47,736 nt of DNA, from IMG/VR virus record IMGVR_UViG_2778261460_000004, one strand, 5' to 3'. Position 1 is the first letter of the stretch; each line of letters opens with the position of its first letter. Below, piece by piece: positions 1,659 to 19,987 of the stretch. Source of the DNA: a virus (lineage: Duplodnaviria; Heunggongvirae; Uroviricota; Caudoviricetes). The notes under the pieces are model-generated. The model worked only from the letters and a program-made list of their open reading frames with translations, did no database searches and had not been told where the DNA came from. A program made the translations under genes and the position numbers.

Positions 1659-4139
1659 TTAAAAATCAGCCTGACTCGGGATCAGTTTTTGTATCGTAGC
1701 TGTAACGTATTTTGCCTGGTGACGGGCGTCATCCAGTGCATTGTGGCGCACGCCTTCGAATGGAATAACGGTTCTGGCATCAAAGTCGATTGTTTTTCCC
1801 AGCTCAACGATTGTGCGTACATCGCGATCGTTGTAGTAGCGCCACGGGCAGGGGATGTCCAGACGTTCGTATGAGGTGCGCAAAATTGCGTTATCGAAAG
1901 TCGCACCATTACCCCATACCTGAACGAATTTTTCATCTGAGTATTCGTTGATGAACTCCCGAAACTGCGAAAGGGCATCCTTCAGTTTTACCTGGTCTGT
2001 TAAAATGGCAGCTCTGGCTTCACTGGACTGCTTCAGCCACCATTCGATGGTTCCACCGTCAGGAACAGCCCCTGTATTCATTGCGTCAGTCAGACTGATA
2101 ACGATATAAAATACTGGCCCGATTTCCCCTGTTTGTGGGTCGAAGAAAACCGCACCAATAACCACGATGGGCGCATTGGTGTTGGTTCCCATTGTTTCAA
2201 GGTCGATCATCAGGTGGTACCACACTCTGCTGGTGGATGTGATAACGTGATGACCGTTCACCGCAATTAAGGAATCTGCCGTCTCGCCAGTTTCATTATC
2301 GCTGGCGTGGTCCTGAGCGCTGCCAGCATTCTCCTTGTGTGGATGTTCAGCGCCTTCCATTTCCTCCGGATCATTTTCCTGAACTTCAACCTGATTCTCT
2401 TCATCGAATGTTTCCTGGTATGTTGCGTCGCCCATCACCGCACCACAATCAGGGCAGTTGCCGCCACCGAGCTGACCGCAGGCGGTGCAGACTTTTTCCG
2501 CTTCCTGTTGCGCTACCGGTTCGGATTGTTTCGTTTCTGGTTCGTTTTGTAACGCATTTGGGCTGTTTTGTTCCGCTTTTGGGTCGTTCTGTTCCGATTC
2601 TTGCTGGTTCTGGTTCACAGAATCGCGGGTTTCAATCCCCTTCACCCATTTCGGATCATTCGGGTCGCTAATCCCTGCAACAAATTCTCCGCGAGAGGCA
2701 GCAAGCAACTTATCGGCGTCAGGCTGGCTGATATTGGCTGCCTGCATAATTTTGTTTACTTCGTCAGCGGTAACTTTTACCGGCTCCGGTTGTGCGGTCG
2801 TGTCAGATGCACCAGTATTTTGTTGTGAACCTGAGTATGTGCCGTTTTTGCGGGCAAAATATTCTTCTTTCGTGATTTCAGTAGCCCCTGCAGCCAGCGC
2901 CTTATTCAGACCAGAAAGTTTGTTTGCACGACCATATTTTTCGCCATCCTTATCGGTGAAAAGGAAGTAGAACGGCCCCTCACGCTCTACAGATGGTTCA
3001 GTTTCCAGCGTGCTTTCATTTTTTTGGGTATCAGATACTTCAGTTTCCACTGCATCAGTTTGTGCTGCTGACGGCTGGAGAATATCAGTAGTGTTCTGGT
3101 CTGTTTCTTCATCCTCAAACACGCCCTTTGTCGCCAGGTATTCAGTGATGTATTTGTTCAGTGCCACGGGATCTTTGTGAATGTCGATCGGACGCTCACG
3201 GACAAGGCCAAAAATAGTCTGACGGTCGTAGCGAACGGCATCGGGTTGTTTGCGCATTGATGCGGAAATGCGCTTCCAGTCTTCGCGATCTTTGTCGATA
3301 ACTTCATTTTTTGCCCAACGATGGATGCTGCCGTCAATGTTTCCGGCATTAATATCGCCAGGCCACAGAGCGTAGGCCAGTTCTTCATCCAGCGTTTTCC
3401 ATGTCTGCTTGTATTCGCGACGAATGGCGGTAGTGGCGGGGTTGATTTTTCCTGCTGAGTTTTCAGTGTGCTGCCGGTTGACTCTGGCGCGGGCAAGATC
3501 AACAACAGACGTGTATTTCCCGGTTTCTTTGCGTTCGGCTTCGCGACGTTTTTTCCAGGTGCGTAATTCTGTCTGGATCTCAGGCCATTTTGCGCCCGGC
3601 TTACATTTATGTTTAACCCACCCGATGGCGAACAGCTTTAGTTCTGAATACATGACGTTAACTTCAGGCATTTTCATCAGTGCCTCAACGATATGCCCGT
3701 CGAATGTTGCCATGTCCTCCTGCAACAATTCCTGTGCACTAATCACCATATCAACGGTGATGTTTTCACATGTACCGAACTTAACCAGGACCGCGTTCTG
3801 TACTTCAAGGGACAGCTTGTCAAAATTGACGTTCATCGGATCGGATTCTGGTTCGACCGGAACAAAGGAAGCGCCTTCCTCATCCCAGCGGTTTTCCAGC
3901 ATATATTCGGTATCCCAGGAGTCGATGGCAGGGCGGGGCATGCCGGGTTTATCCTCGCAGACAAGAAATTTATAAGCGCAGTCCTGAGCAGCCGGATATT
4001 GCTCCAGGAATTGCCAGGTAAATTTGGCACGGGCGCGGCGTTCGTCGCCGGCTTCAATGGCAGTGGCTACAGCGACTGCACCTTCTTCCTTTATTGCCTG
4101 TTCGTCCGGAATGGCGGCGCAAATAAAGACTTTACTCAT
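1659..4139 (-). CDS. Large prophage exonuclease with C-terminal DnaQ-like DEDDh 3'-5' exonuclease domain (exodeoxyribonuclease VIII-like / YdfE-like)
   Basis: 826 aa. C-terminal motifs LMIDLETMG (Exo I, D-x-E), [12 protein letters not shown] (Exo II) and [13 protein letters not shown] (Exo III, H-x4-D). Central Cys cluster [16 protein letters not shown] (zinc-ribbon-like) and Gln/Glu-rich low-complexity linker. No RecT/Bet partner seen. Confidence 0.7.
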
Positions 4140-4219: not shown

Positions 4220-4423
4220 TTACGGTGCTGTTTTAAGTCCTGCCGGGATTTCGTTATTGTCCATGTGAATAACTTTATCGACCGGATAGCAGTTACCGGG
4301 AATTTTTTGTTCCGCTGCGGCAGCCATGCATTCTTTCATTGAGTCATGTATGCCAATAACAAGATCGACTGGTTCGCCTGTATTAAGAAAAACTGTCAGA
4401 ACGAGTGCAAATGCTGTATTCAT
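4220..4423 (-). CDS. ydfD: YdfD-like small protein (reported lysis protein of Qin)
   Basis: 67-aa product from internal Met (MNTAFALVLTVFLNTGEPVDL...KIPGNCYPVDKVIH...), hydrophobic N-terminus; start overlaps dicB stop (ATGA); synteny dicF-dicB-ydfD as in Qin. Identity from memory, moderate. Confidence 0.55.
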   Translation of the reverse strand: MNTAFALVLTVFLNTGEPVDLVIGIHDSMKECMAAAAEQKIPGNCYPVDKVIHMDNNEIPAGLKTAP

Positions 4424-4608
4424 TGCCAGCGTCCTTTTTGCATCAGGCGTAAACGGGCCAGCATTGAAAGAATGCATATTTTATTTAATAACTCCCGTTC
4501 GTGTTTTCTCTTATTAATGGCATCTTCAGTAAATGCAGGGTTACTGATTCTGACACCAATTTCAAAACAACCTTCAGACGTATTGACGTTTGGTAATAAC
4601 GTTTCCAT
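4420..4608 (-). CDS. dicB: Cell division inhibitor DicB (MinC-activating)
   Basis: 62-aa product METLLPNVNTSEGCFEIGVRISNPAFTEDAINKRKHERELLNKICILSMLARLRLMQKGRWQ, near-identical to recalled K-12 DicB; directly downstream of the DicF sequence. Confidence 0.85.
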   Translation of the reverse strand: METLLPNVNTSEGCFEIGVRISNPAFTEDAINKRKHERELLNKICILSMLARLRLMQKGRWQ

Positions 4609-4777
4609 TATCGCGTCCTCAACAATGAATTTTGTGATGCGGTGCCTGGTGCCTCCAGGTGACGTTAACCAGTTAACAATTAACGCCGGATGCAGAGAAT
4701 CCACCCATAACACTGTTTTTGGTTTTAACTGTTCCGCGTGCGCTTAGCCGCATTCACCGCATCACAAAATTCACTTT

Positions 4778-4836
4778 AAAAAGGGCGGCAGAGCAGTCAC
4801 GAAGTAAAACTGATACCGCCAAACGTCACCAGAAAA
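4778..4836 (-). ncRNA. dicF: DicF small regulatory RNA (ftsZ-targeting sRNA) with 3' terminator-like hairpin
   Basis: Reverse complement of 4784-4836 reads TTTTCTGGTGACGTTTGGCGGTATCAGTTTTACTTCGTGACTGCTCTGCCGCCC followed by a T-run, matching the recalled 53-nt DicF with about 1 mismatch; position between ydfA-type genes and dicB matches the known dicB operon. Confidence 0.75.
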
Positions 4837-5171
4837 TTGATAACAGAGGGCGTTGCAGCGGGGTTGTCACTTAAGCGTATGGTCAACCTGACAACCCGGT
4901 GTCCTCAACGGGGAAGGGATAACCCCGCCATACTTACCGCCGCGCTATTTCGCGGATTGCCACAACCGGAAGCGCACGGTCGACGAAAATTTAACGACAG
5001 ACCATTTATGAACTAACAGCCTCGCCGTGCGCTTTCGCGTTATGCCCTGACTTTTCAGGGAAAATTAACCAGTGGTAAACTGGTGCTGCCGGATGCTCAC
5101 CCGTGTCCGGCGCACGCACTCCACCTAACCCGTGGAGAACTCCTTAATTACCAACCCATCAGGAGGGGGAA

Positions 5172-5393
5172 ATGACTAGTAAAAATGTAAATATCCAGTT
5201 TAACCATGATGTTTCTCCTGCTGGACTTGCGGATGAACTCACTGCTATAAAAACGGCAATTATGCTACTTGCGGCTAAGTTGCCAGCAGCATCACAACCA
5301 TCAGATATTTGTGACTCATTACGTAAGATGAATTCAACAAAATGCAACGAGATGGCATCACTTATTGAAATAGCTATTGATTTTAATGATTAA
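5172..5393 (+). CDS. Hypothetical 73-aa protein, oriented against the early-left operon
   Basis: ATG preceded by strong SD (AGGAGGGGGAAATG); convergent with and overlapping by 11 nt the 3' end of the 124-aa minus-strand gene; no recognisable motifs. Confidence 0.4.
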   Translation: MTSKNVNIQFNHDVSPAGLADELTAIKTAIMLLAAKLPAASQPSDICDSLRKMNSTKCNEMASLIEIAIDFND

Positions 5394-5757
5394 TCGAAAT
5401 CTCATGGCTAACTGTAACACTCCCGTCTGTGGCGGGATGCTTTAAATCACAGGAATTAATGCTTCTTGTTGCGAAGTAATTTTCAAGGGGGTTCATTCGA
5501 ATCCCTTTCTGTTTCATTAACAAGCCAAATCCCTTATCAATGATGTCCATTAATTCCAGGAAGTCTTTTTTATGTAAATCCTGGTTATCAGAGAGTTGCT
5601 TCTCTTCGTACAGTCCGATAAAGGCACGACGCACGTTACCGGATATATTATCGATGGTTTCTTTTTCTACGGTACTCAGGTCAAGAGTCGCCAATTGAGA
5701 ATGAACTATATTCGCTGCCATTTCCTGGAATGGCATTGGTAAATCTTTAAATTCCAT
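5383..5757 (-). CDS. Hypothetical 124-aa protein in dicB operon (position of ydfB/ydfC)
   Basis: Likely start at internal Met (MEFKDLPMPFQ...) with GAGG 6 nt upstream; 12 nt downstream of ydfA stop; no recognised family. Confidence 0.5.
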   Translation of the reverse strand: MEFKDLPMPFQEMAANIVHSQLATLDLSTVEKETIDNISGNVRRAFIGLYEEKQLSDNQDLHKKDFLELMDIIDKGFGLLMKQKGIRMNPLENYFATRSINSCDLKHPATDGSVTVSHEISINH

Positions 5758-5768
5758 CGTCAACCTCA

Positions 5769-5921
5769 TCAGTCAGTATTTCTGGCTAACCAGCGACGCG
5801 CGCCAGCTTCGGTTTTAAACGTTTTGCTTTTGGTATACGTCATCGCCGTGAACGTGCCGTCTTGGTTTGGAAACACGCCGTATACCAGAGACTCGTTGTT
5901 GCCAAGATCGATAGTATCCAT
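5769..5921 (-). CDS. ydfA: YdfA-like small protein (first gene of dicB operon)
   Basis: 50-aa product MDTIDLGNNESLVYGVFPNQDGTFTAMTYTKSKTFKTEAGARRWLARNTD matches recalled K-12 YdfA; track ORF extends upstream to 5999. Confidence 0.65.
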   Translation of the reverse strand: MDTIDLGNNESLVYGVFPNQDGTFTAMTYTKSKTFKTEAGARRWLARNTD

Positions 5922-6103: not shown

Positions 6104-6141
6104 ATACCCATAGGTATTTAAAAAGTAAATACCCATGGGTA
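6104..6141. promoter_or_regulatory. Putative left operator sites (OL-like) between repressor gene and ydfA
   Basis: Two palindromes ATACCCATAGGTAT (6104-6117) and TACCCATGGGTA (6130-6141) flanked by A/T runs; share ATACCC-N3/4-GGT core with the sites in the divergent promoter region. Confidence 0.45.
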
Positions 6142-6183: not shown

Positions 6184-6603
6184 CTATGATGCGTTTTGTG
6201 CTTTCTTTTTACGGATTTCTTCGTAGATCATATTGTAATACTGTTTTTTCTCTTCAAGAGTTTTTAATAAGTTATCCGCTTCACTTTCTGGCAGTTCGTC
6301 TAAGAGATCTAAAAAAATACGTTGTCGTGGCGTTAGAACCCTTGTTTCATAACTGGAGGCTGTGTTCGTTGATGATGAAACGATACCATCCATCCATCCC
6401 CGGGGTAACCCAAAGGACTCTTCGATAATCTCCACCATATCATCAGCGATCCGTTTTTTTCCCTTTTTCCCCTCTGGGTACAACATTCTTGATACATAAG
6501 AAGGCTCGCGCCCGATCTTTCTGGCCACGTTAACCGCTTTACCATCGCATTTCTCATCACGAATTTTGATGAGTTGCTGTCGTCTAAATTCATATTTGTC
6601 CAT
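6184..6603 (-). CDS. Prophage repressor, DicA/RacR-family HTH protein (cI analogue)
   Basis: 139 aa; N-terminal HTH-like segment (GKAVNVARKIGREPSYVSRML); C-terminal LPESEADNLL motif reminiscent of DicA; divergent from Cro-like gene across an operator-rich intergenic region. Confidence 0.7.
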   Translation of the reverse strand: MDKYEFRRQQLIKIRDEKCDGKAVNVARKIGREPSYVSRMLYPEGKKGKKRIADDMVEIIEESFGLPRGWMDGIVSSSTNTASSYETRVLTPRQRIFLDLLDELPESEADNLLKTLEEKKQYYNMIYEEIRKKKAQNAS

Positions 6604-6631
6604 AGGTAAATAATAGATGCGATTACTGCAA

Positions 6632-6678
6632 GGTAAACAACCTGCGGGTATTGACTTTTGTTTACCTGCGGGTATTCT
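6632..6678. promoter_or_regulatory. Divergent promoter/operator region of the immunity switch (OR-like)
   Basis: 13-mer ACCTGCGGGTATT repeated at 6640-6652 and 6664-6676; inverted repeat GGTAAACA/TGTTTACC (6632-6639, 6658-6665); TTGACT hexamer at 6651-6656. Confidence 0.5.
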
Positions 6679-6703
6679 TTGCTGTGTTTACTAAGGAGTA
6701 GCT

Positions 6704-6985
6704 ATGGAAGAATTAAGAATATTTCTCAATTCTCTTTCGTCAGATGAACAGCGTATGTTTGCATGCGAGTGTGGTACCAGCATCGGTTATCTAAGAAAGG
6801 CATTGAGTAAAGGTCAAGTGTTAGGGGCATCGTTATGTGTCCTTATTGAGCGAGCCAGTAATGGTGAAGTTACACGTCAGCAACTAAGGCCTTTTGATTG
6901 GATGAATATTTGGCCCGAGCTGGAAGATACCAAAATGTTAACACAACCACTTTCTAGGAGCTTGATTCATGAAAATCAAGCATGA
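6704..6985 (+). CDS. Cro/YdaS-like HTH regulator
   Basis: 93 aa, first gene rightward of the repressor; SD AAGGAG 6 nt upstream of ATG; resembles Rac YdaS (from memory). Confidence 0.6.
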   Translation: MEELRIFLNSLSSDEQRMFACECGTSIGYLRKALSKGQVLGASLCVLIERASNGEVTRQQLRPFDWMNIWPELEDTKMLTQPLSRSLIHENQA

Positions 6986-15134: not shown

Positions 15135-15345
15135 TTTTATATTGGCGAGGTAACGGGAGTTAAGTAGAATGGCTGCGGGTGCTTGAGGCTATCTGTCTCA
15201 GGCATGAACACCAAAGGCAGATAGAGAAAAGCCCCAGTTAACATTACGCGTCCTGCAAGACGCTTAACATTAATCTGAGGCTCAATCTATGAACGGCAAA
15301 TCTAGGTTAGCCTCTTACGTGCCGAAAGGCAAGGAGAAGCAGGCT

Positions 15346-15501
15346 ATGAAGCAGCAAAAGGCGATGTTAATCGCCCTGATCGTCATCTGTTTAACCGTCA
15401 TAGTGACGGCACTGGTAACGAGGAAAGACCTCTGCGAGGTACGAATCCGAACCGGCCAGACGGAGGTCGCTGTCTTCACAGCTTACGAACCTGAGGAGTA
15501 A
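15346..15501 (+). CDS. hokD: Hok-family type I toxin HokD (RelF)
   Basis: 51-aa product MKQQKAMLIALIVICLTVIVTALVTRKDLCEVRIRTGQTEVAVFTAYEPEE matches recalled HokD; in-frame upstream extension (from 15289) may correspond to a mok-like frame; antisense Sok-like RNA expected upstream but not delimited. Confidence 0.85.
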   Translation: MKQQKAMLIALIVICLTVIVTALVTRKDLCEVRIRTGQTEVAVFTAYEPEE

Positions 15502-19677: not shown

Positions 19678-19753
19678 GGCCCTTTAGCTCAGTGGTGAGA
19701 GCGAGCGACTCATAATCGCCAGGTCGCTGGTTCAAATCCAGCAAGGGCCACCA
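19678..19753 (+). tRNA. tRNA-Ile2-like (anticodon CAU; ileX/ileZ-like), could formally be Met
   Basis: 76 nt GGCCCTTTAGCTCAGTGG...CTCATAA anticodon loop...TTCAAATCC...AAGGGCCACCA; one mismatch in anticodon stem. Confidence 0.8.
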
Positions 19754-19754
19754 A

Positions 19755-19831
19755 TCGCCACTAGCTCATCAGGAAAGAGCGTCAACCCTTTAAGTTGAGT
19801 GTGCGAGGTTCGAGTCCCCGGTGGCGGTCCA
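19755..19831 (+). tRNA. tRNA-like gene, atypical (anticodon loop CCUUUAA, possibly Lys-UUU or a degenerate Arg tRNA)
   Basis: Acceptor stem TCGCCAC/GTGGCGG, T-loop TTCGAGT, 3' CCA present; C at position 33 and one T-stem mismatch make the assignment uncertain. Confidence 0.5.
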
Positions 19832-19833
19832 GT

Positions 19834-19909
<76 letters not shown>

Positions 19910-19912
19910 TAT

Positions 19913-19987
<75 letters not shown>

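What the first reader, a model, noticed from the sequence alone, without database searches (positions are those of the whole stretch)
4778..5769. Qin-type dicB operon with DicF sRNA, plus two unassigned genes (124 aa and an opposite-strand 73 aa)
DicF and dicB are recognisable, placing a cell-division-inhibiting module under immunity control in an otherwise Rac/lambda-like phage. The slot that holds ydfB/ydfC in K-12 is occupied by a 124-aa protein I do not recognise. A 73-aa gene with a strong SD is encoded on the opposite strand, overlapping its 3' end. Convergent overlapping small genes next to a regulatory RNA could form a toxin-antitoxin or exclusion pair.
Basis: partly seen in the sequence, partly recalled or inferred. 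Interest (0 to 1): 0.5.

Follow-up and report, generated by a model that had tools for sequence, protein, structure and literature searches.

The report
Antisense small gene in dicBF operon
A prophage operon that makes the cell-division inhibitors DicF and DicB carries, on the opposite strand, a genuine 73-codon gene of unknown function; it sits where the related Rac prophage keeps its superinfection-exclusion gene sieB, and it is not a toxin-antitoxin partner of the neighbouring 124-codon gene.

Summary
DicF (4783-4834, minus strand), dicB (4420-4608, just outside the stated coordinates), a 124-aa gene (5383-5757, minus) and a convergent 73-aa gene (5172-5393, plus; AGGAGG five bases before the ATG; 11-nt 3' overlap) are all present. 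The 124-aa protein is unrelated to YdfB or YdfC and in other prophages follows an intact ydfC.

The 73-aa ORF is a real gene (dN/dS 0.11-0.18). It belongs to a small family in Escherichia, Salmonella and Yersinia prophages. In nine independent contexts with readable neighbours the family gene lies one to four genes downstream of the repressor, antisense to the early-left operon, overlapping the 3' end of whichever small gene is there. Rac sieB has the same position and orientation, but there is no SieB homology and the protein looks soluble, acidic and helical.

The toxin-antitoxin reading is not supported. The 124-aa gene is in 723 of 5,426 complete E. coli genomes and the 73-aa gene in 88. 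The 73-aa family has three unrelated partner types. The slot holds other unrelated small ORFs, three of them behind the same leader and ribosome-binding site.

Most likely it is a prophage accessory gene silenced by convergent transcription on induction. Its function is unknown and no promoter was found. Moderate interest.

The parts
4220..4423 (-). ydfD-like gene (DUF1482), 4-nt overlap with the dicB stop codon
   Evidence: Pfam DUF1482 at 1e-22 and phrog_1092 from residue 19 of the 85-aa ORF; same arrangement as K-12 dicB-ydfD.
4420..4608 (-). dicB, cell-division inhibitor (62 aa, METLLPN...)
   Evidence: Pfam DicB 126 bits; NCBIfam NF049927 129 bits against a cut-off of 100.
4783..4834 (-). 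DicF sRNA with its terminator hairpin and U-run
   Evidence: Rfam RF00039 75.2 bits, full model 1-52.
4835..5087 (-). Structured untranslated spacer of the DicF precursor transcript, conserved in about 4,500 E. coli genomes
   Evidence: Alignment with K-12 Qin and other loci shows long invariant runs. Flank conservation is seen in 4,473 of 5,426 genomes. The operon-sense fold of 4778-5175 has z = -2.7. DicF is processed from the polycistronic transcript (PMC5069750).
5088..5137 (-). Conserved two-hairpin element (H1 5088-5111 GCCGGA..TCCGGC; H2 5119-5137 CTCCAC..GTGGAG) between the cassette and the spacer
   Evidence: Present in E. coli, Salmonella and Yersinia loci and in K-12 Qin. RNAalifold keeps H1 in 11 of 11 sequences on the minus strand, with two G.U pairs that would be A.C mismatches on the plus strand. 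H2 is recovered only on the minus strand, and 7 of the 14 predicted pairs show compensatory changes.
5161..5166 (+). Shine-Dalgarno AGGAGG of the 73-aa gene, 5 nt before the ATG; part of a leader shared by three of the alternative ORFs of this slot
   Evidence: Read from the sequence. The same leader and SD precede the unrelated 91-aa (L011) and 77-aa (L013) ORFs.
5172..5393 (+). 73-aa gene: acidic, soluble, predicted three-helix protein of an uncharacterised family (phrog_7249), antisense to the early-left operon
   Evidence: dN/dS 0.11-0.18. Family defined. Model pLDDT 67 with helices 16-36, 43-52 and 56-72. pI 4.8, no transmembrane segment. Conserved position and orientation in nine contexts.
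5383..5757 (-). 124-aa early-left gene (phrog_6937): conserved N-domain (aa 1-55), a helix (60-83) and a predicted disordered tail (92-124)
   Evidence: PHROG hits show the N-domain shared with phrog_1363, 2151, 9419 and 33007. 226 homologues include 106/109-, 133- and 135-aa C-terminal variants. Model pLDDT 63. pN/pS about 0.3-0.4, with synonymous divergence rising from 0.06-0.11 in the N-domain to 0.45-0.6 in the tail.
5485..5518 (+). Terminator-like hairpin plus T-rich tail about 90 nt after the 73-aa stop codon, inside the 124-aa coding sequence
   Evidence: Scan hit in the window and at the same place in L007 and L011 with a better T-run. The stem is weakened in L010, which has no plus-strand ORF (-6.2 vs -11.2 kcal/mol).
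5769..5921 (-). ydfA (DUF1391), 94% identical to K-12 YdfA
   Evidence: Pfam DUF1391 at 1e-28; BLASTP against K-12 YdfA.
6184..6603 (-). Repressor-like gene of the immunity region (139 aa), divergent from a YdaS/Cro-like gene at 6704-6985
   Evidence: phrog_5736 'transcriptional regulator' at 4e-70; weak match to the DicA C-terminus (23.9 bits against a cut-off of 101).

Best explanation
The region is the promoter-proximal part of a Qin/Rac-type early-left operon on the minus strand. The order is repressor, ydfA, the 124-aa gene, a structured spacer, DicF, dicB, a ydfD-like gene and a RecE-like exonuclease. Embedded in it on the opposite strand is a separate accessory gene ('moron') encoding a small, acidic, soluble helical protein of 73 aa. 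It occupies a polymorphic slot that in related prophages is empty or holds other, unrelated small ORFs, three of them behind the same leader and ribosome-binding site. The slot corresponds in position and orientation to sieB in Rac. Inferred mechanism: while the repressor keeps the early-left promoter off, the plus-strand gene can be expressed and its protein acts on a host or phage protein, most plausibly for exclusion or host modulation. On induction the early-left transcript must read antisense through the whole 73-aa gene to reach DicF and dicB, so convergent transcription and antisense pairing would shut the accessory gene off. The 124-aa gene is an ordinary, modular early-left gene whose 3' end happens to abut the slot; it is not a cognate partner. 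Shown: gene reality, family, conserved position and orientation, independence from the 124-aa gene, and slot polymorphism. Inferred: expression in the lysogen, silencing by convergent transcription, and the exclusion-type function.
For: Coding: dN/dS 0.11-0.18, lost in the other frames. Family: the exhaustive HMMER search finds 71-88-aa relatives at 31-40% identity sharing a conserved core motif. Conserved architecture: in nine independent contexts with readable neighbours the family gene lies 1-4 genes downstream of the repressor, antisense to the left operon, with a 4-83-nt convergent 3' overlap. These contexts are the window, L001, L007-9, Salmonella L004/5, Yersinia L014, E. coli L015/16, L017/18, Salmonella L019/20 and L021/22; Salmonella phage 118970_sal3 (L025) adds a tenth. 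Not tied to a backbone: nearly the same 73-aa gene sits behind four different repressor types and in front of dicB or kilR. Rac has the same layout: racR, ydaG, ydaF (DUF1391), then sieB (convergent, 4-nt overlap), the KilS sRNA and kilR. Slot polymorphism: the unrelated 73-, 91- and 77-aa ORFs start right after the same leader and SD; a 57-aa ORF has its own SD; K-12 and L010 are empty. Genome counts for the 77-, 91-, 73- and 74-aa ORFs are 650, 198, 88 and 7. A plus-strand terminator-like hairpin follows the ORF. Genes antisense to lytic genes are typical prophage accessory loci (PMC7067206). DicF is processed from the polycistronic operon transcript, so that transcript must cross the 73-aa gene (PMC5069750).
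Against: No sigma-70 consensus promoter was found upstream of the plus-strand ORF in the spacer of any of the four loci scanned. The only candidates are a weak TTTTCA-N17/18-TAAACT read by eye and consensus-like sites upstream of DicF (4583-4611 and 4673-4700). There are no expression data. No homology or fold match gives a function, and both models have only moderate confidence. Unlike SieB, the protein is not a membrane protein, so the analogy is positional only. The leader hairpins fit the operon-sense strand better than the plus strand, so the shared leader may not be a dedicated 5' UTR. The terminator/ORF correlation rests on a single lineage without an ORF.
Confidence: 0.6

Rival explanations
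1. The 124-aa and 73-aa genes form a cognate toxin-antitoxin or exclusion pair, with the convergent overlap coupling their expression.
For: They overlap convergently by 11 nt and move together as one roughly 600-bp insert in 88 E. coli genomes, placed after ydfA or after ydfC. The variable region exchanged between prophages comprises the plus-strand ORF plus the C-terminal part of the minus-strand ORF.
Against: The full-length 124-aa gene is in 723 genomes and the 73-aa gene in 88. L010 has the 124-aa gene directly abutting the spacer. The 73-aa family is paired with three unrelated neighbour types. There are no toxin, antitoxin or defence model hits. Known type II systems are co-directional operons. 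Neither protein is hydrophobic.
Confidence: 0.08
2. What matters is mainly the plus-strand transcription itself. A convergent transcript acts as an insulator or antisense RNA that blocks leaky early-left read-through into the toxic DicF, dicB or kil genes in lysogens. If it starts upstream of DicF, it would be a fully complementary anti-DicF RNA. The encoded protein would be secondary.
For: The slot lies between the promoter-proximal genes and the division inhibitors both here and in Rac (DicF/dicB, KilS/kilR) and in L007-9 (kilR). Unrelated ORFs fill the same slot in the same orientation behind the same leader. The only consensus-like plus-strand promoter sites lie upstream of DicF, at 4583-4611 and 4673-4700. 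DicF overproduction is highly toxic (PMC5069750).
Against: Strong purifying selection on the protein sequence over saturated synonymous divergence shows that the protein itself is functional. Family members also occur in prophages with no recognised division inhibitor downstream (L014, L015, L021). K-12 Qin and L010 keep DicF and dicB with an empty slot. The promoter sites are weak consensus matches at the frequency expected by chance.
Confidence: 0.12
3. The 73-aa protein is a regulator of the lysis-lysogeny decision (for example a modulator of the repressor, of Cro/YdaS-YdaT, or of a host protease) rather than an exclusion factor. It would be placed next to the immunity region for that reason.
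For: It is always within 1-4 genes of the repressor. It is small, acidic and helical, like many protein-binding modulators. zf-C4_ClpX-type small proteins are frequent neighbours.
Against: Nearly identical 73-aa genes sit behind four unrelated repressor types, which argues against a repressor-specific partner. The slot is empty or holds unrelated ORFs in otherwise similar prophages. It occurs in only 88 of about 4,500 genomes that carry the flanks, so it is dispensable for the switch.
Confidence: 0.15
4. The 73-aa ORF is a chance open frame on the antisense strand of the operon's untranslated or C-terminal region.
For: It is a short ORF with few database relatives in the indexed search (8 clusters), and no promoter was found.
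Against: dN/dS 0.11-0.18 with an intact frame at 64-74% identity. The SD is conserved across genera. Full-length relatives exist at 31-40% identity in Yersinia, Salmonella and E. coli.
Confidence: 0.03

Closest known systems
sieB of the Rac prophage (E. coli K-12), with the lambda and P22 sieB genes
   Same: Same slot and orientation. In Rac the order is racR, ydaG, ydaF (DUF1391), then sieB convergent with a 4-nt 3' overlap, then a spacer with the sRNA KilS, then the division inhibitor kilR. In the window the order is repressor, ydfA (DUF1391), the 124-aa gene, then the 73-aa gene convergent with an 11-nt overlap, then a spacer with DicF, then dicB. From my own knowledge, sieB of P22 and lambda is expressed from its own promoter in lysogens.
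   Different: No sequence relationship: Pfam SieB matches Rac SieB at 1.5e-31 but not the 73-aa protein, and hhalign probability is 0.1%. SieB has 162-192 aa and, from my own knowledge, is a membrane protein. The 73-aa protein is acidic, with no transmembrane segment. The leaders are unrelated.
dicBF operon of the Qin prophage (ydfA-ydfB-ydfC-dicF-dicB-ydfD)
   Same: ydfA, the long structured spacer, DicF, dicB and a ydfD-like gene are present in the same order and at high identity. DicF should arise by processing of the polycistronic transcript.
   Different: ydfB and ydfC are absent. A 124-aa gene and the antisense 73-aa gene lie between ydfA and the spacer. The repressor is not DicA (23.9 bits against a cut-off of 101). 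The module sits in an apparently complete Rac-like phage with a RecE-like exonuclease.
Prophage accessory ('moron') loci encoded antisense to lytic genes
   Same: Orientation against the lytic operon, presence/absence polymorphism between otherwise similar prophages, its own SD and a terminator-like hairpin.
   Different: No promoter has been identified. The insert is unusually minimal and shares its leader and SD with two of the alternative ORFs, so it behaves like an exchangeable allele of a fixed slot rather than a free-standing promoter-gene-terminator unit.
Type I and type II toxin-antitoxin systems
   Same: Two small genes with overlapping convergent transcripts next to a regulatory RNA; antisense overlap is the hallmark of type I systems.
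   Different: No hydrophobic toxin, no homology to any toxin or antitoxin, independent distribution of the two genes, and non-conserved partners.

Membership tests
Qin-type dicBF operon | DicF sRNA present, with its terminator hairpin | tested here: met
   Rfam RF00039 75.2 bits against a gathering score of 48, full length, 4783-4834 minus.
Qin-type dicBF operon | dicB downstream of DicF, followed by ydfD (DUF1482) | tested here: met
   Pfam DicB 126 bits; NCBIfam 129 bits against a cut-off of 100; DUF1482 at 1e-22.
Qin-type dicBF operon | ydfA, ydfB and ydfC upstream of the spacer | tested here: not met
   Only ydfA is present (94% identical to K-12). No similarity of any window ORF to YdfB or YdfC. 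The 124-aa gene follows ydfA directly.
Qin-type dicBF operon | Control by the DicA/DicC immunity pair | tested here: not met
   The repressor-like protein scores 23.9 bits against the NCBIfam DicA cut-off of 101. Its best match is phrog_5736. The Cro-side genes are YdaS/YdaT-like.
SieB superinfection-exclusion family (PF14163) | Sequence membership in PF14163 | tested here: not met
   No Pfam hit for the 73-aa protein or any member of alignment A4. hhalign against Rac SieB gives probability 0.1%. Rac SieB itself hits at 1.5e-31.
SieB superinfection-exclusion family (PF14163) | Position in the early-left region, transcribed against the left operon, convergent with the gene after the repressor block | tested here: met
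   Compare (Rac) with (window; family contexts).
SieB superinfection-exclusion family (PF14163) | Membrane protein that aborts superinfecting phage growth | tested here: not met
   The highest 19-residue Kyte-Doolittle mean is 1.33, pI is 4.8, and the model is a three-helix soluble protein. The exclusion phenotype is not testable with these tools.
Type II toxin-antitoxin system | Co-directional two-gene operon whose members co-occur obligatorily | tested here: not met
   The genes are convergent. The 124-aa gene is in 723 genomes and the 73-aa gene in 88. L010 lacks the 73-aa gene. The 73-aa family has three unrelated neighbour types.
Type II toxin-antitoxin system | Homology to a known toxin or antitoxin fold or family | tested here: not met
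   No Pfam, NCBIfam or PADLOC hits above noise. No PDB sequence or Foldseek match.
Type I toxin-antitoxin system | Small hydrophobic membrane toxin plus an overlapping antisense RNA | tested here: not met
   Neither protein has a hydrophobic segment. An antisense overlap exists, but no separate antitoxin RNA is recognised by Rfam.
Prophage moron (independent accessory transcription unit) | Present or absent between otherwise collinear prophages; orientation against the lytic genes | tested here: met
   The flanks occur in 4,473 genomes and the 73-aa gene in 88. There are empty slots (K-12, L010) and alternative ORFs.
Prophage moron (independent accessory transcription unit) | Own promoter and terminator | tested here: inconclusive
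   A terminator-like hairpin lies 90 nt downstream. No consensus promoter was found in the spacer in four loci.
PHROG 7249 and PHROG 6937 (unknown function) | Full-length profile match | tested here: met
   phrog_7249 at 8.7e-46 over 1-73 of 73; phrog_6937 at 2.3e-79 over 1-124 of 124.

The most novel reading that the evidence does not exclude
The slot between the promoter-proximal early-left genes and the division-inhibitor module of Rac/Qin-like prophages is a fixed expression site: a shared leader and ribosome-binding site on one side and convergent transcription as an off-switch on the other. It holds interchangeable, mutually unrelated lysogen-expressed exclusion or defence genes (sieB in Rac; the 73/74-, 77-, 91- and 57-aa ORFs elsewhere). 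On this reading the 73-aa family would be a new small, soluble anti-phage or exclusion protein. A more speculative variant: its mRNA starts upstream of DicF and doubles as an anti-DicF antisense RNA, so a toxic sRNA would be held in check by an mRNA.
Probability: 0.25. Interest if true: 0.6.

Novelty: new member of a known kind. Interest (0 to 1): 0.35.

Why it matters
If the 73-aa family and the other occupants of this slot are expressed in lysogens, the slot would be an easily searched source of very small, uncharacterised prophage accessory or anti-phage proteins. The alternative ORFs occur in roughly 900 of 5,426 complete E. coli genomes, including O157:H7 (the 77-aa ORF alone is in 650). 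The locus would also be a clean natural example of convergent transcription switching an accessory gene off when the lytic operon fires, right next to DicF, whose biogenesis requires that same read-through. Separately, the conserved two-hairpin RNA element in the operon transcript is an untested candidate for a processing, stabilising or antitermination signal in phages of this type, in which no N homologue was seen in the loci examined here. None of this changes current understanding of DicF or DicB.

Tried and rejected
- **ydfB-ydfC fusion or variant:** BLASTP of the 124-aa protein against K-12 and phage YdfB/YdfC found no similarity, so this idea was rejected. ydfC also co-occurs upstream of the 124-aa gene in L007, L010 and L011.
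- **Family assignment:** Pfam, NCBIfam, PADLOC and PHROG scans of both proteins, of all members of alignment A4 and of the alternative slot ORFs gave only unknown-function PHROGs.
- **Solved structures by sequence:** PDB profile searches with A2, A3 and A4 found nothing below E = 0.1.
- **Fold search:** AlphaFold models (pLDDT 63 and 67) searched with Foldseek against PDB and BFVD gave nothing better than E = 2.7. The afdb50 library was unavailable.
- **SieB relationship:** hhalign of the 73-aa family against Rac SieB found none.
- **Shared partner:** hhalign of the 124-aa C-domain against the recurrent 57-63-aa partner found none, so the idea of one conserved protein partner was dropped.
- **Promoters:** scans of the spacer in the window, L007, L011 and L017 found no consensus site. 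A weak TTTTCA-N17/18-TAAACT just upstream of H1 was seen only by eye and is not claimed.
- **Other RNA families:** a permissive Rfam scan of 4700-5800 found only DicF.
- **SD and the insert:** I first thought the SD belonged to the insert. One search showed that the leader and SD are shared by three of the alternative ORFs and that the variable part starts at the ATG.
- **Literature:** nothing was found on these proteins. The UTI89 filamentation screen covered a K-12-type dicBF locus without this cassette.
Full report
**What is there.** Rfam finds a full-length DicF at 4783-4834 on the minus strand (75.2 bits against a gathering score of 48). The minus strand carries, reading leftwards:
- a repressor-like gene at 6184-6603 (phrog_5736; not DicA, 23.9 bits against a cut-off of 101);
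- ydfA/DUF1391 at 5769-5921, 94% identical to K-12 YdfA;
- a 124-aa gene at 5383-5757;
- a roughly 340-nt untranslated spacer;
- DicF;
- dicB at 4420-4608 (Pfam 126 bits, NCBIfam 129 bits against a cut-off of 100);
- a ydfD-like DUF1482 gene at 4220-4423;
- a RecE-like exonuclease at 1659-4139.

On the plus strand a 73-aa ORF runs from 5172 to 5393. AGGAGG lies five bases before its ATG, and its last 11 nt overlap the 3' end of the 124-aa gene. The only corrections are that dicB lies just outside the stated coordinates and that the mechanical ORF is 128 aa, although every homologue starts at MEFKDLP.

**Are the two unassigned ORFs real genes?** Both match full-length PHROG families of unknown function (phrog_6937 and phrog_7249), and PGAP annotates both as hypothetical proteins in a 96%-identical prophage.
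- **73-aa ORF.** I compared it with homologues that are 92% (E. coli L007), 74% (Salmonella L004) and 64% (metagenome L006) identical. dN/dS is 0.11-0.18 while dS is saturated at about 1.5. Differences by codon position are 17/7/33, and the signal disappears in the other five frames. It is a protein-coding gene under purifying selection.
- **124-aa gene.** Selection is weaker (pN/pS about 0.3-0.4). Synonymous divergence climbs from 0.06-0.11 in the N-terminal 55 codons to 0.45-0.6 in the last 33, which is the signature of mosaic recombination inside the gene.

**Is the 124-aa protein a YdfB/YdfC variant?** No. It shows no similarity to K-12 or phage YdfB or YdfC. In other prophages it follows an intact ydfC (L007) or ydfB and ydfC (L010, L011), so it is an additional gene. 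In the window, ydfB and ydfC are simply missing.

The protein is modular. Residues 1-55 also match phrog_1363, 2151, 9419 and 33007. Database relatives include 106/109-, 133- and 135-aa forms that share only this N-domain. The N-domain is widespread in Stx phages. The AlphaFold model (pLDDT 63) shows three helices and a disordered tail.

**Do the two genes form a pair?** The distribution says no.
- Among 5,426 complete E. coli genomes the conserved flanks occur in 4,473, the full-length 124-aa gene in 723, its N-domain in 1,357, and the 73-aa gene in only 88.
- In O157:H7 strain Z1723 (L010) the 124-aa gene, with the same ISINH tail, abuts the DicF spacer with no plus-strand ORF.
- Conversely, the 73-aa family has unrelated neighbours elsewhere. 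One is a free-standing 57-63-aa protein (ELKHVIALLLEDAKRL...EPNAGTEARIW) in Salmonella L005 and in E. coli L015 and L017. Others are zf-C4_ClpX-type small proteins in Yersinia L014, Salmonella L019 and L021.
- Profile-profile comparison finds no relationship between the 124-aa C-domain and the 57-63-aa protein.
- Neither protein hits any toxin, antitoxin or defence model, and neither is hydrophobic.

**What the 73-aa gene is.** The indexed search found only eight clusters. An exhaustive HMMER search of 1.8 billion representatives then revealed a family of 71-88-aa proteins, 31-40% identical, with the core (D/E)ELxAIKxAxxLxxAK(I/L)P...SL...(E/Q)LAxLI.

I looked at every context I could fetch: the window; L001; L007-9; Salmonella L004/5; Yersinia L014; E. 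coli L015/16; L017/18 (a ydfA-ydfB-ydfC...dicB backbone); Salmonella L019/20; L021/22; and Salmonella phage 118970_sal3. A further locus, L006, is cut off by the contig end. In all of the readable contexts:
- the gene lies one to four genes downstream of the CI-like repressor;
- it is oriented against the early-left operon;
- its 3' end overlaps the last small left-operon gene by 4-83 nt.

Position and orientation are conserved; the neighbour is not. Nearly the same 73-aa gene is found behind four different repressor types and in front of either dicB or kilR, so it is not tied to an immunity specificity.

The predicted protein is acidic (pI 4.8) and soluble, with three helices (pLDDT 67). No Pfam, PDB or Foldseek match gives a function.

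**The slot.** Unrelated plus-strand ORFs occupy the same place in related prophages: 91 aa in L011, 77 aa in O157:H7 L013 and 57 aa in L012. The 73-, 91- and 77-aa ORFs all begin immediately after the same leader and ribosome-binding site (...CCAACCCTCAGGAGGGTGAAATG). The 57-aa ORF has its own SD. K-12 Qin keeps the leader but lacks the SD and ORF.

| Plus-strand ORF | Complete E. coli genomes (of 5,426) |
|---|---|
| 77 aa | 650 |
| 91 aa | 198 |
| 73 aa | 88 |
| 74 aa (distant member of the 73-aa family) | 7 |

The exchangeable unit therefore runs from the ATG of the plus-strand ORF to somewhere inside the minus-strand gene. This explains the variable C-termini of that gene.

A plus-strand terminator-like hairpin lies about 90 nt past the 73-aa stop codon, inside the 124-aa coding sequence. 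It is present in the window, L007 and L011, and its stem is weakened in L010, which lacks a plus-strand ORF. That correlation rests on one lineage.

**Closest known analogue.** K-12 Rac has the same architecture: racR, ydaG, ydaF (DUF1391), then sieB convergent with a 4-nt overlap, then a spacer with the sRNA KilS, then kilR, an FtsZ inhibitor. The 73-aa gene sits where sieB sits, next to an sRNA and division-inhibitor module. There is no homology, SieB-type proteins are larger, and the leaders differ. Genes antisense to lytic genes are regarded as typical prophage accessory loci (PMC7067206).

**Likely mechanism.** DicF's 5' end is made by RNase E processing of the polycistronic operon transcript (PMC5069750). 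The early-left transcript must therefore run antisense through the whole 73-aa gene to reach DicF and dicB. I infer the following:
- the 73-aa gene is an accessory gene that can be expressed while the repressor silences the left operon;
- it is shut off by convergent transcription and antisense pairing on induction;
- its product acts by binding a host or phage protein, most plausibly for exclusion or host modulation.

This is inference, and the main weakness is that no consensus promoter was found upstream of the ORF in any of four loci.

**The leader element.** Two hairpins (H1 5088-5111, H2 5119-5137) lie between the SD and the spacer. They are conserved from E. coli to Salmonella and Yersinia, and they are present in K-12 even without a plus-strand ORF. 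RNAalifold in both orientations gives these results:
- H1 pairs in all 11 sequences on the operon-sense strand, using two G.U pairs that would be A.C mismatches on the plus strand.
- H2 is recovered only on the operon-sense strand.
- Across H1 and H2, 7 of the 14 predicted pairs show compensatory changes.

The structure therefore more likely acts in the early-left RNA (processing, stabilisation or antitermination) than as a 5' UTR of the plus-strand gene. Rfam has no family for it. The whole operon-sense spacer is unusually stable (z = -2.7).

**Verdict.** The toxin-antitoxin pair interpretation is not supported. The 73-aa gene is a genuine member of an uncharacterised small-protein family with a strikingly conserved antisense position, best described as a new occupant of the sieB-type accessory slot of Rac/Qin-like prophages. 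This is ordinary mosaic prophage biology with a modestly interesting twist, and its function remains open.

Noticed in passing
window 5088-5137 (also L004, L006, L014, L019, K-12 Qin L003): Two consecutive hairpins conserved across Escherichia, Salmonella and Yersinia prophages. Their compensatory changes and G.U pairs fit the operon-sense (minus) strand only. No Rfam family covers them. They could be a processing, stabilising or put-like antitermination signal of the early-left transcript.
   Followed up: partly
L011 2244-2519, L013 1995-2228, L012 2004-2177: Three other unrelated small plus-strand ORFs (91, 77 and 57 aa) occupy the same slot. The 91- and 77-aa ORFs start after the same leader and SD as the 73-aa gene. 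The 77-aa ORF is in 650 and the 91-aa ORF in 198 of 5,426 complete E. coli genomes. None hits any family. Their coding status was not tested.
   Followed up: partly
L005 861-1034, L015 4188-4379, L017 3655-3834; C-terminal half of P0100 and L012 2258-2659: A 57-63-aa protein (ELKHVIALLLEDAKRL..EPNAGTEARIW) exists free-standing and also fused behind the MEFKDLP N-domain (the 133-aa variant). It is the convergent neighbour of the 73-aa family in three independent contexts.
   Followed up: partly
window 5383-5757; Stx phages (for example ArgO145, P13374, TL-2011c): The 55-residue N-domain (MEFKDLP...GNVRRAFIGLYEEK) of the 124-aa protein is a widespread early-left module fused to many different C-termini (phrog_1363, 2151, 9419, 33007). 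In Salmonella L004 a similar motif ends a 129-aa protein.
   Followed up: partly
window 15177-15351 (+): Full-length sok antitoxin RNA (Rfam RF01794, 110 bits), implying a hok/sok-type type I toxin-antitoxin locus elsewhere in this phage.
   Followed up: no
window 19678-19984 (+): A cluster of four tRNA genes (Rfam tRNA, 40-74 bits).
   Followed up: no
window 6105-6141 and 6630-6680: A long palindrome (TACCCATGGGTATTTAC...TACCTATGGGTA) lies between the repressor gene and ydfA, and a direct repeat of ACCTGCGGGTAT lies between the repressor-like and Cro-like genes. These are candidate left and right operators.
   Followed up: no
window 5068-5084 (-): A window-specific hairpin, ACCAGT-TTACC-ACTGGT followed by TAATTTTCCC, lies in the DicF spacer. 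K-12 and the other loci have a different sequence there. It may be a chance match to the terminator pattern.
   Followed up: no
L019 480-947 and L021 3410-3916: In two Salmonella-type loci a further plus-strand gene lies upstream of the 73-aa family gene: a 155-aa protein with two hydrophobic segments and a 168-aa protein. This suggests a two-gene accessory unit. Neither has a family hit.
   Followed up: partly
L001 4496-4974: In the closest E. coli prophage (96% identical over the region) a relBE toxin-antitoxin pair is inserted between ydfA and the repressor. It is absent from the window.
   Followed up: no
P0126-P0128: Some genomes carry chimeric ORFs that end with the last 24 residues of the 73-aa protein, fused to sequence antisense to the DicF region. 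This indicates deletions that remove the spacer and the 5' half of the 73-aa gene.
   Followed up: no
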